DNA from: Octopus sinensis | Taxonomy: Eukaryota | Assembly (NCBI RefSeq): GCF_006345805.1 | Contig: NW_021827097.1 | Coordinates: 1 to 11,500, forward strand | Direction: 5' to 3' | Length of the DNA: 11,500 bases | Shown here: positions 226 to 1,832 of the stretch, piece by piece | Layout: each line of letters begins with the position of its first letter | How positions within the stretch are numbered: position 1 is the stretch's first letter | Program-made: the position numbers

Positions 226-1832
226 CTATGAATTAGCAGCATCTCGAGGGATATAAACTTTATCGAATGCACATACAATGTGCATACACAAAGTTGGTGA
301 CTTGCTACTTCGTGGGTAGGCTGCGCTTATAGGCGTAAGAGAATATACCGTATTTATGAGGAACCCATTTTTTAAAATCAAAAATTAGGTTAAAAAGTAT
401 GAGAGTTTCTTATACATGGATAGCATTATAATCCCTTACAAAACCTTTTTTCCAAATTTTAAGCCCCAAAATTTAGAGTGTTCCTTATACATTAGGGTTT
501 CTTATACCCGTTAAAATACAGTATTCTCCTTAATTTGACTGGTGTTAAAACATACCCTATATATGTAAGTATGTACATGTTCTTTTCTTCTTTTATTCTG
601 TTACTGGTTTCAGCCAGAGGTTGGGGCTATATGCTGGAGCACTACCTTTCGGAGTTTTGGGGGTCTCCTTTCGGTACTGGTTTTGGTGAAGAAGCGAGTT
701 CGATGAAGCTGCTCTTTTTTGTGCCTCCTCCTGTAATGTGGACTCATCTGGGATTTCAGAGAGAAATTTGCCCAAATGCTTCTTGAACGATTCTCCGTCT
801 ACACTCTTAGGTTCTTTAACAGGATGTTAAACAGCCGTGGTCCCCTGAAACCTAAACTGTTGCAATACTGGGTCCTTATCTGAGATGAAGAGGACGGTGT
901 CTTTTGTAGTATGCAGTGCTGTTCAGTTCGGTGGACGGTATAGCTTTGACTTTGTTTACGGCCATATCACTTTGAAAACACCGAAGTTAAGCAAAGTCGA
1001 GCCTAGTTAGGACTTAGATGGGTGACCGCTTGGGAAACCTAGGTGCTGTAAACGTCTTTCTCTCTTTAAGGCGGCGAGCTGGCAGAAACGTTAGCACGCC
1101 GGGCGAAATGCGTAGCCGTATTTCGTCTGCCGTTACGTTGTGAGTTCGAATTCCGCCGCGGTCGACTTTGCCTTTCATCCTTTCGGGGTCGATAAATTAA
1201 GTACCAGTTACGCACTGGGGTCTATGTAATCTACTTCATACCTATGTCTGTCCTTGTTTGTCCCCTCTATGTTTAACCCTTTGTGGGTAATAAAGAAATA
1301 GGTATAGCTTTGAATTCCAAAGTTGGGAGCTAACCGTCAGTCTGGATAAGCTTGCATTTTCAGAAAAACAAATCAGCTGACTCGGACATTACAAATAAAA
1401 TCTGTAAGCGGAACAGTAAATTTCTGCAAGATTTTTCTCAGGTTTAAAATATGACATTGTTTTCGTTACCTACATTCCAACGATGGAGCTTTGTATCTTT
1501 GTTAAAAAACTAGCTCCTGCTTCAAAGGGAAAATTTAAGTAATTATACATACATGCAAGTATGCGTTTATTGTTTTCTGAAATCTTGGTCTTTGAATTGG
1601 AAATGTTGATATTCAAATCGAAACGATTAAATAAGATAAAAGAAATTTTTTTAAATGTATTCAGAACGTTAACTCATCTTGTTCACTCTCTCTTTCACTT
1701 TCTCTCCTTTTCTCTTTCTCTCTCTCACTCTATATATTTATGTATATATTATATGTATATATATATTATATACATATAATGACATATATATATGTGTGTG
1801 TACACAGACACACACACACAAACATATAATGA

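What the first reader, a model, noticed from the sequence alone, without database searches (positions are those of the whole stretch)
937..1313. 5S rRNA / tRNA-SINE chimera retrotransposed as one unit: candidate new dimeric SINE
Seen: a 5S-derived 100-mer (954-1053), a 16-nt pyrimidine-rich linker and a full tRNA-SINE (1070-1300) lie inside one 13-bp TSD (GGTATAGCTTTGA at 937-949 and 1301-1313). Excising the insert and one TSD copy restores a continuous CR1 ORF2 frame (...PNFGIQSYT|VHRTEQHC...), so this was a single insertion event. The insert starts only 4 nt (CTTT, echoing the target) before 5S position +1. No run of four or more Ts occurs in 954-1300, so the usual 5S Pol III terminator is absent and read-through is possible. 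Established: 5S-headed SINEs (SINE3 class) and small-RNA/retroposon template-switch chimeras exist in vertebrates. Inference: this is either a 5S-promoter-driven dimeric SINE family carrying both type 1 and type 2 Pol III promoters, or a one-off template switch by the reverse transcriptase. I do not know of one described in cephalopods, but cannot check.
Basis: partly seen in the sequence, partly recalled or inferred. Interest (0 to 1): 0.85.

Follow-up and report, generated by a model that had tools for sequence, protein, structure and literature searches.

The report
5S rRNA copy fused to SINE
A copy of 5S ribosomal RNA sits head-to-tail on a full-length short mobile element (SINE) inside one pair of target-site repeats; this kind of fusion is already known to seed new mobile-element families in vertebrates, and whether it has done so here could not be tested.

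Summary
Rfam finds a 5S rRNA copy at 954-1054 (80 bits) that lacks 19 model positions. It is followed by a SINE copy ending at 1300. An exact 13-bp repeat at 937-949 and 1301-1313 brackets both. Removing 950-1313 in silico restores a gapless 55-residue match to a LINE ORF2 protein across the junction. No run of four or more T lies in the insert.

Three labels need correcting:
- The "16-nt linker" is mostly the SINE's own 5' leader; a 5S-less SINE head at 2955 carries it too. The 5S end therefore abuts the SINE end.
- No tool confirmed a tRNA origin for the SINE head.
- The LINE is real, but the "CR1" name is unverified.

My best reading (0.4) is a one-event chimera: the LINE reverse transcriptase reached the 5' end of a SINE RNA and continued on a 5S rRNA. 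The rivals are a copy of an existing 5S+SINE family (0.3) and a later 5S insertion into the SINE leader, suggested by a CTTT repeat on both sides of the 5S (0.15).

Copy number, the decisive test, could not be run because no eukaryote genome collection was available. Adding 5S to a tRNA-type SINE head is already described in vertebrates, so interest is modest.

The parts
937..949 (.). 5' copy of the target-site duplication, GGTATAGCTTTGA. It lies inside the LINE ORF2 reading frame (codons for S-Y-T on the minus strand).
950..953 (+). Four extra bases, CTTT, between the TSD and 5S position 1. They are identical to the first four bases of the SINE leader (1056-1059) and to part of the target (944-947).
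   Evidence: direct reading.
954..1054 (+). 5S rRNA-derived segment. Both ends of the model are present; model positions 30-48 (the tip of helix III and loop C) are missing. 28 of 29 retained model base pairs are canonical.
1055..1069 (+). One unassigned T (1055) followed by the SINE 5' leader, CTTTCTCTCTTTAA (1056-1069).
   Evidence: 12 of 14 leader bases match 2955-2969, upstream of a 5S-less SINE head.
1070..1160 (+). SINE head. It holds an A-box-like site at 1080-1090 (3 mismatches to the consensus as I recalled it) and a B-box-like site at 1143-1153 (2 mismatches). tRNA origin is not confirmed.
1161..1300 (+). SINE body and 3' end (...AATAAAGAAATA). It belongs to the same subfamily as 3748-3930 (95% identity over 182 nt). 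Across the whole aligned unit 1118-1300, 7 of 183 positions are private to this copy.
1301..1313 (.). 3' copy of the TSD. Its first five bases, GGTAT, also follow the SINE unit in the tandem junction at 3930. The duplication proper is therefore 8 to 13 bp, and GGTAT may have served as priming microhomology.
596..936 (-). Older LINE ORF2 C-terminal fragment, downstream half. It has one frameshift near 820 and a stop at about 596.
1314..1345 (-). Upstream end of the same 5'-truncated LINE fragment (LAPNFGI...). No match to P0004 lies further upstream.

Best explanation
The 351-bp insert (950-1300) is a chimeric retrocopy made in one target-primed reverse transcription event.

Proposed steps:
1. 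A LINE endonuclease nicked an old LINE ORF2 fragment.
2. First-strand synthesis was primed on the 3' end of a SINE RNA, possibly helped by GGTAT microhomology.
3. The reverse transcriptase copied the SINE to its 5' leader.
4. Instead of stopping, it continued on the 3' end of a 5S rRNA (an end-to-end template jump) and copied it to position 1.
5. It skipped the helix III/loop C hairpin, which accounts for the 19 missing positions.
6. Second-strand joining left four extra bases and a 13-bp TSD.

I take it as a locus-specific product rather than a member of an established family. It was born without a T4 terminator between the 5S and the SINE, so it has the layout of a potential founder.

Shown: the parts, their order and orientation, the end-to-end junction, the TSD and the restored host frame. 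Inferred: the template jump, the hairpin skip and the one-off status.
For: - Both RNA-derived parts are end-complete and in the same orientation. The 5S covers model positions 1-120. The SINE starts with the same leader as an independent, 5S-less copy at 2955, so at most one base (T1055) separates the two ends.
- One exact 13-bp TSD brackets both parts. Removing the insert plus one TSD copy gives a gapless 55-residue LINE ORF2 alignment.
- The 5S part looks fresh: 28 of 29 retained pairs are canonical. In my simulation, the chance of no new broken pair is 0.18 at 5% unconstrained divergence and 0.03 at 10%. This fits a copy taken from a structured 5S RNA not long ago.
- Only 1 of the 3 head-bearing SINE copies in the window has a 5S. 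The sequences upstream of the other two are not 5S-like (shuffle fractions 0.59 and 0.11; no second 5S among 46 Rfam matches at E up to 10).
- Template switching from a SINE or LINE RNA to a small RNA is the published explanation for such fusions (passages in PMC4824008, PMC4758252, PMC4494074 and PMC11838501).
Against: - Copy number was not examined at all, so 'one-off' rests on priors.
- Sampling argument: a window is far more likely to contain a member of a multi-copy family than one of a few unique chimeras.
- About 24,000 5S-derived loci, 'many likely SINEs', are reported in the giant squid (PMC6962438, passage). An O. vulgaris annotation lists a SINE class '5S' with 1 family and 7 recent insertions (PMC13282606, section 7, Table 1).
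- The extra CTTT at 950-953 is not predicted by a simple jump. It matches the SINE leader's first four bases, which suits a nested insertion.
- A copy of mature 5S rRNA should be full length, so the 19-nt gap needs an added assumption.
- In human 5S/LINE-1 chimeras the 5S is frequently antisense and truncated (PMC11838501, passage), unlike here.
Confidence: 0.4

Rival explanations
1. The locus is an ordinary copy of an existing composite 5S+SINE lineage. Its source gene was already a chimera, made once by a template switch or by a SINE landing in the terminator of a 5S gene or pseudogene. It would be transcribed by RNA polymerase III from the 5S internal promoter through the SINE, and mobilised through the SINE 3' end.
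For: - The 5S region downstream of the gap (model positions 49-120) is present. From recall, this is where the internal control region lies.
- No T4 run lies in 950-1300.
- The SINE 3' end is intact.
- 7 of 183 SINE positions are private to this copy while the TSD is perfect and the 5S structure intact. This could reflect a source with its own diagnostic changes.
- The sampling argument favours multi-copy elements.
- 5S-derived loci are very numerous in one cephalopod (PMC6962438), and a '5S' SINE class appears in an O. vulgaris annotation (PMC13282606, Table 1).
- Vertebrate precedent: Nishihara 2006, as cited in PMC4824008 and PMC4758252.
Against: - No second copy lies in the window.
- From recall of the Xenopus 5S deletion studies, a 19-bp gap between the start site and the control region should move initiation about 19 bp upstream. 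Only 4 extra bases precede the 5S.
- A head kept only for its promoter should lose pairing elsewhere, yet 28 of 29 pairs are canonical.
- The passages I read on octopus repeats name tRNA-Core and tRNA-Deu as the main SINE classes (PMC8967140).
- The '5S' entry of PMC13282606 covers 42,242 bp in 7 insertions, about 6 kb each, which does not look like a 350-bp SINE.
Confidence: 0.3
2. Two events occurred. A full-length SINE with its leader inserted first and made the 13-bp TSD. Later a tailless 5S retrocopy, or a 5S cDNA captured during break repair, landed four bases inside the SINE leader and duplicated CTTT.
For: - The 5S plus T1055 (954-1055) is flanked by CTTT at 950-953 and 1056-1059.
- Without the 5S and one CTTT, the SINE leader as defined by the 2955 copy would sit directly on the TSD. 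That is a canonical SINE insertion with nothing left over.
- It also fits a 5S that looks fresher than the SINE, which has 7 of 183 private changes.
- Tailless retropseudogenes of small RNAs flanked by TSDs are described (PMC4494074, passage).
Against: - A 5S insertion landing within a few bases of a SINE 5' end, in the same orientation, is improbable a priori.
- CTTT is very common here. By my count on the output it occurs about ten times within 937-1313, so a 4-nt flank match is weak evidence.
- Four bp is short beside the 13-bp TSD of the neighbouring event.
- The SINE 5' end is defined by only one other copy, and no TSD could be found for that copy.
Confidence: 0.15
3. A single event, but the two RNAs were joined before reverse transcription. 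An RNA ligase would have done this, as shown for U6/LINE-1 chimeric RNA. The ligated RNA was then copied straight through.
For: - The junction is end-to-end with at most one extra base.
- The mechanism is published for U6 (PMC6789731; I saw only the search listing and the start of the abstract).
Against: - Nothing in the sequence separates this from a template jump.
- 5S rRNA is not known to me to carry the 3' end chemistry that the U6 case relies on (recalled).
Confidence: 0.1

Closest known systems
Vertebrate SINEs with a composite 5S rRNA + tRNA-derived head (Deu-type; Nishihara, Smit and Okada 2006, as cited in passages of PMC4824008, PMC4758252 and PMC4494074)
   Same: A 5S-derived sequence sits 5' of a tRNA-type SINE head in the same orientation. 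The proposed origin is a template switch from SINE RNA to 5S rRNA. The 5S could take over promoter function.
   Different: Those are multi-copy families in which the tRNA part is partial. Here the whole SINE, including its leader, is kept, the 5S lacks 19 positions, and copy number is unknown. Whether this SINE has a Deu core was not tested.
SINE3 (5S-headed SINEs; Kapitonov and Jurka 2003, cited in PMC4494074 and PMC10886601)
   Same: A 5S-derived 5' end with the promoter-bearing part retained, followed by non-5S sequence and a LINE-type 3' end.
   Different: SINE3 heads are followed by a body, not by a second complete SINE. PMC4494074 (2015) gives the distribution as 'vertebrates and insects'. 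Family status is not shown here.
Small-RNA/LINE-1 chimeric insertions in mammals (U6, U3 and 5S joined to L1, Alu or mRNA; Buzdin et al. as cited in PMC4758252, and the catalogue in PMC11838501)
   Same: A small structured RNA at the 5' end, a retroelement 3' end, one TSD and one insertion event. Each such locus is usually unique and does not propagate.
   Different: In the human catalogue 5S makes up 10.5% of 253 candidates, is frequently antisense, and is truncated at positions 46 or 90. Here it is sense and complete at both ends with an internal gap. The 3' partner is a SINE and the enzyme is not L1.
5' additions of snRNA sequence to SINEU elements (PMC4494074)
   Same: Repeated addition of small-RNA sequence to the 5' end of an existing SINE, attributed to template switching. 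That paper also gives criteria for separating a family from a sum of independent chimeras, namely shared internal deletions and shared 5' extensions.
   Different: There the added heads are U1/U2 sequences, which Pol II transcribes. Here the added head is a Pol III 5S.

Membership tests
SINE family in the SINEBase sense (PMC3531059, Definitions passages) | Short (<1 kb) interspersed element | tested here: met
   The insert is 351 bp, bounded by a TSD.
SINE family in the SINEBase sense (PMC3531059, Definitions passages) | [quoted passage not shown] | not testable with these tools
   No eukaryote genome collection is on offer. There is 1 copy of the 5S+SINE arrangement in the 11.5-kb window.
SINE family in the SINEBase sense (PMC3531059, Definitions passages) | Head similar to tRNA, 5S rRNA or 7SL RNA over at least 60 nt | tested here: met
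   The Rfam 5S_rRNA match covers 101 nt at 80 bits against a gathering score of 38.
SINE family in the SINEBase sense (PMC3531059, Definitions passages) | Copies share substitutions or indels with a source gene, not with the cellular RNA (this separates SINEs from RNA pseudogenes) | not testable with these tools
   This needs other copies and the native 5S gene. The 19-nt gap is the obvious marker to look for.
Composite 5S + tRNA-head SINE (Nishihara 2006 type) | 5S-derived sequence directly 5' of a tRNA-derived SINE head, same strand | tested here: inconclusive
   The 5S placement is met. The tRNA derivation of the head is not confirmed by ARAGORN or Rfam.
Composite 5S + tRNA-head SINE (Nishihara 2006 type) | 5S internal promoter region retained | tested here: inconclusive
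   Model positions 49-120 are present. The box positions are recalled, not tested. The 19-nt gap shortens the distance from the start site to the promoter.
Template-switch chimeric retrocopy | Two unrelated RNA-derived parts fused in one orientation inside a single TSD | tested here: met
Template-switch chimeric retrocopy | Junction joins the 3' end of the 5' partner to the (often 5'-complete) 3' partner with few or no extra bases | tested here: met
   The 5S model end is at 1054 and the SINE leader starts at 1056. The SINE 5' end rests on one other copy only.
Template-switch chimeric retrocopy | Locus is unique in the genome | not testable with these tools
   No genome to search.
tRNA-derived SINE (SINE2) | Recognisable tRNA-like head | tested here: not met
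   ARAGORN finds 0 genes at default and at two relaxed settings; at its loosest setting it reports only two low-scoring calls (Asn, and Cys on the opposite strand). Rfam gives no tRNA match at E up to 10 in a 281-nt search. The fold is not a cloverleaf.
tRNA-derived SINE (SINE2) | A and B boxes at tRNA-like spacing | tested here: inconclusive
   There is a B-box-like site at 1143-1153 with 2 mismatches, but the window holds 6 such sites against 12.8 expected. The A-box-like site at 1080-1090 is not among the 36 matches at up to 2 mismatches. The consensus motifs were recalled.
tRNA-derived SINE (SINE2) | Multi-copy, interspersed | tested here: met
   Ten further related segments lie in the window.
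LINE ORF2, CR1 clade (the host of the insertion) | Homology to an endonuclease + reverse-transcriptase ORF2 | tested here: met
   P0004 (984 aa) carries Exo_endo_phos and RVT_1. Its C-terminus aligns to both flanks.
LINE ORF2, CR1 clade (the host of the insertion) | Placement in the CR1 clade by RT phylogeny | not tested
   No named relatives were returned and no reference set is at hand.

The most novel reading that the evidence does not exclude
This locus belongs to, or is the founder of, a young composite 5S+SINE lineage in a cephalopod-like genome. It would be driven by the 5S type 1 promoter and carried by the SINE 3' end. That would be an invertebrate replay of the origin of the vertebrate 5S-headed Deu SINEs, caught while both heads are still complete.
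Probability: 0.3. Interest if true: 0.5.

Novelty: new member of a known kind. Interest (0 to 1): 0.3.

Why it matters
If it is a one-off, it is a clean invertebrate example of a 5S/SINE chimeric retrocopy with both partners end-complete. That adds to the mostly mammalian catalogue of such events and says something about how readily the local LINE enzyme changes template.

If it is multi-copy, it would extend 5S-headed or composite-head SINEs to molluscs. PMC4494074 gave their range as vertebrates and insects in 2015. It would also offer an early-stage model of how a SINE swaps promoters. Either way it is of interest to specialists in mobile elements and not beyond.

Tried and rejected
- **Second 5S in the window.** Rfam at gathering score gave 1 match. 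At E up to 10, 1 of the 46 matches is 5S and none is tRNA.
- **5S remnants upstream of the other two SINE heads.** Local alignments scored 14 and 17, and 59% and 11% of 2000 shuffles did as well. Rejected.
- **TSDs for the copies at 2955 and 3696, to fix the SINE 5' end.** Only 7-8-nt chance matches turned up, so the 5' end rests on one leader match.
- **tRNA origin.** ARAGORN at default and relaxed thresholds, an Rfam small-region search, a fold and box motif scans gave no confirmation.
- **Protein-space search for other junction copies.** The 60-aa open frame across the junction (1017-1196, minus strand) found no candidate, so this route is uninformative. The first LINE-tail search by words also found nothing. 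The full HMMER search then gave 5 hits at E up to 0.001.
- **LINE clade.** The cluster look-up returned no names.
- **Absence of T4 as a signal.** Rejected as evidence, because 11.5% of equal-length stretches also lack one.
- **Literature.**
  - Searches found no description of a 5S+tRNA composite SINE in cephalopods.
  - Search 62, for a 20-nt stretch of the SINE, found 0 papers.
  - Supplements were closed, so the repeat libraries and tables of PMC13282606, PMC8967140 and PMC6962438 may hold a matching consensus that I could not see.
  - Papers not held: PMC326244 (the 5S rRNA sequences paper of Walker and Doolittle 1983, which I had hoped would include a cephalopod), PMC4795812 (octopus genome) and PMC1484453 (Nishihara 2006).
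  - Nishihara 2006 is therefore cited only through other papers' passages, and the native 5S sequence stayed unchecked.
- **Not done.**
  - Any search of the source or related genomes, Dfam, Repbase or SINEBase was impossible with the collections on offer. The genome-contig scan covers only bacteria and archaea and was not used.
  - The closed metagenome and viral collections were not touched.
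Full report
**What is there**

The window has no N. Rfam places a 5S rRNA match at 954-1054 on the + strand. It scores 80 bits against a gathering score of 38, with E 4.2e-16. 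Both ends of the 120-position model are matched, and model positions 30-48 are absent. These missing positions are the tip of helix III with loop C.

Mapping the model structure onto the sequence gives 29 retained base pairs. Of these, 28 are canonical, including 3 G-U pairs, and one is G-A. A free fold keeps the 9-bp closing helix.

The exact 13-mer GGTATAGCTTTGA occurs at 937-949 and 1301-1313 and nowhere else on either strand. Four bases, CTTT, separate the first copy from 5S position 1.

From 1065 to 1300 the sequence is 93% identical to 3696-3930. Nine further segments of the same repeat lie in the window. The repeat is therefore a genuine multi-copy element, and this copy reaches its usual 3' end...AATAAAGAAATA.

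**The host sequence**

The flanks belong to an older LINE. A 77-residue open stretch of the minus strand (596-826) gave 5 hits at E up to 0.001 among 1.84 billion representatives. One hit, P0004 (984 aa), carries Exo_endo_phos, Exo_endo_phos_2 and RVT_1 domains, and the match lies at its C-terminus.

In a script I removed 950-1313, which is the insert plus one TSD copy. P0004 residues 875-929 then align without a gap, 33 of 55 identical, straight across LAPNFGIQSYT|VHRTEQHC. The other variants behave differently:
- With the sequence as it stands, the alignment stops at the junction.
- With both TSD copies kept, it changes frame.
- With both TSD copies removed, it loses the residues upstream of the junction.

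The LINE fragment is 5'-truncated at about 1345 and has a frameshift near 820. Its assignment to CR1 is untested, because the cluster look-up returned no names.

**The linker is the SINE's own leader**

The self-comparison extended the similarity between this copy and a head-only relative at 2955 back to 1056. Of the 14 bases at 1056-1069, 12 match 2955-2969. Only 10 of 22,970 15-mers in the window score as well against the leader.

The element at 2955 has the same head but a different body. Nothing upstream of it resembles 5S.

The simplest reading is that the SINE RNA begins at or near 1056. The 5S end at 1054 and the SINE start at 1056 then meet with one unassigned T between them. This rests on one other copy. 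The third head-bearing copy, at 3696, shares only the last seven leader bases, and I found no TSD that would fix the 5' end of either copy.

**What the SINE is**

I could not confirm a tRNA origin.
- ARAGORN finds nothing at default or at two relaxed settings. At its loosest setting it gives only two low-scoring calls.
- Rfam has no tRNA match at E up to 10, even in a 281-nt search.
- The head folds into a long hairpin rather than a cloverleaf.
- A B-box-like site lies at 1143-1153 with 2 mismatches, and an A-box-like site at 1080-1090 needs 3. Such matches are no more frequent in the window than in shuffles. Both consensus motifs were recalled.

**Age**

The TSD is perfect. The 5S keeps 28 of 29 pairs. 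In a simulation of unconstrained substitution, the chance of no new broken pair is 0.50 at 2%, 0.18 at 5% and 0.03 at 10%.

The SINE unit 1118-1300 is 95% identical to 3748-3930 and shares subfamily markers with it. It has 7 of 183 positions private to it.

Together these point to a fairly young insertion, with a few per cent of change at most since it happened.

**Terminators**

However, 11.5% of equal-length stretches on this strand also lack one, so this carries little weight alone. A copy made from mature 5S RNA would lack the gene's terminator in any case (inference).

**How it arose**

I rank four readings.

(a) One event with a template jump, probability 0.4. The reverse transcriptase copied a SINE RNA to its 5' end and continued on the 3' end of a 5S rRNA.
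- This explains the end-to-end junction of two end-complete RNAs, the common orientation, the single TSD and the fresh 5S.
- It is the published explanation for such fusions (passages in PMC4824008, PMC4758252, PMC4494074 and PMC11838501).
- The 19-nt gap would be a skip across the base of a hairpin (inference).
- The first five TSD bases, GGTAT, also follow the SINE unit at the tandem junction near 3930. They may have served as priming microhomology, which would make the duplication proper 8 to 13 bp.

(b) A copy of an existing composite family, probability 0.3. There is nothing in the window for it: only 1 of 3 head-bearing copies has a 5S. Even so, it cannot be dismissed.
- A randomly met locus is more likely to belong to a large family than to a handful of unique chimeras.
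- About 24,000 5S-derived loci are reported in the giant squid (PMC6962438, passage).
- A curated O. vulgaris annotation lists a SINE class '5S' with 1 family and 7 recent insertions. Its 42,242 bp of coverage, about 6 kb per insertion, does not look like this element (PMC13282606, section 7).
- Against a 5S-driven source carrying this gap: from recall, initiation is measured from the internal control region. It should then start about 19 bp upstream of 5S position 1, not 4.

(c) Two events, probability 0.15. The 5S plus T1055 is flanked by CTTT on both sides.
- Without the 5S and one CTTT, the SINE leader would sit directly on the TSD.
- This explains the four extra bases better than (a).
- It needs a 5S retrocopy to land within a few bases of a SINE 5' end in the same orientation.
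- CTTT is common here, about ten occurrences in 937-1313 by my count.

(d) The two RNAs were ligated before reverse transcription, probability 0.1. This is shown for U6/LINE-1 (PMC6789731; I saw only the listing and the start of the abstract). It cannot be told apart from (a) by sequence.

**Comparison with what is known**

Adding a 5S sequence to the 5' end of a tRNA-type SINE head is described for vertebrate Deu-type SINEs. There the 5S took over the promoter after part of the tRNA region was lost (Nishihara 2006, through passages of PMC4758252, PMC4824008 and PMC4494074).

SINE3 families arose several times (PMC10886601, passage), and their range was given as vertebrates and insects in 2015 (PMC4494074).

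Human 5S/LINE-1 chimeras exist. They make up 10.5% of 253 candidates, but there the 5S is frequently antisense and truncated at positions 46 or 90 (PMC11838501). Here the 5S is sense and complete at both ends, and the 3' partner is a whole SINE.

By the SINEBase definition (PMC3531059) a family needs about 100 copies and markers shared among them. Neither could be tested.

**Novelty and verdict**

The kind of event is known, so at most this is a new member of a known kind.

My five literature searches found no description of a composite 5S+SINE element in cephalopods.

Interest is 0.3. It would rise to about 0.5 if a genome search shows a young family.

The decisive test is a BLASTN of the junction against the source genome and a look at the orthologous site. 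It could not be run here, because the only genome collection on offer covers bacteria and archaea.

Noticed in passing
window 3748-4128 (+), 8906-9226 (+), 8535-8776 (-): SINE body units of about 184 nt stand in tandem. The junction is the same each time: the tail ...AAAGAAAT plus 2-3 bases runs into internal position GTATTTCGTCTGCC. This is either a quasi-oligomeric SINE subfamily or repeated tail-to-internal template switching.
   Followed up: partly
window 2955-about 3232 (+): A second SINE type shares the leader and the first ~57 nt of the head with the 1056 copy. It has an unrelated body and ends in (CA)n/(TA)n. No TSD was found.
   Followed up: partly
window 5156-5258 and 5299-5401: An inverted repeat of 103 nt, 96% complementary, with a 40-nt spacer, which looks like a MITE-like hairpin. 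The sub-threshold Rfam matches there (MIR2118 at 45.8 bits against a gathering score of 85, and FasX) are most likely artefacts of the hairpin.
   Followed up: no
window 8442-8575 and 8775-8908: A direct repeat of 134 nt, 89% identical. On the minus strand each copy continues from a SINE 3' end. This may be a 3'-extended SINE variant or another element into which SINEs inserted.
   Followed up: no
window 6927-7050 and 7249-about 7640; 10731-10976; 3284-3520: Long trinucleotide arrays: (ATT)n, (GAT)n and a GGT-rich tract. Many (TA)n, (CA)n and (CATA)n runs lie elsewhere.
   Followed up: no
window about 800-830 (-): The LINE ORF2 tail changes frame once between the two blocks that align to P0004 (residues 875-929 and 928-973). 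The host LINE copy was therefore already decayed, or decayed later.
   Followed up: partly
protein P0001 (not in the window): A 2639-aa NACHT-domain protein model from the representative library matches the LINE ORF2 tail in 16 separate stretches. This suggests a gene model that swallowed many LINE-tail fragments.
   Followed up: no
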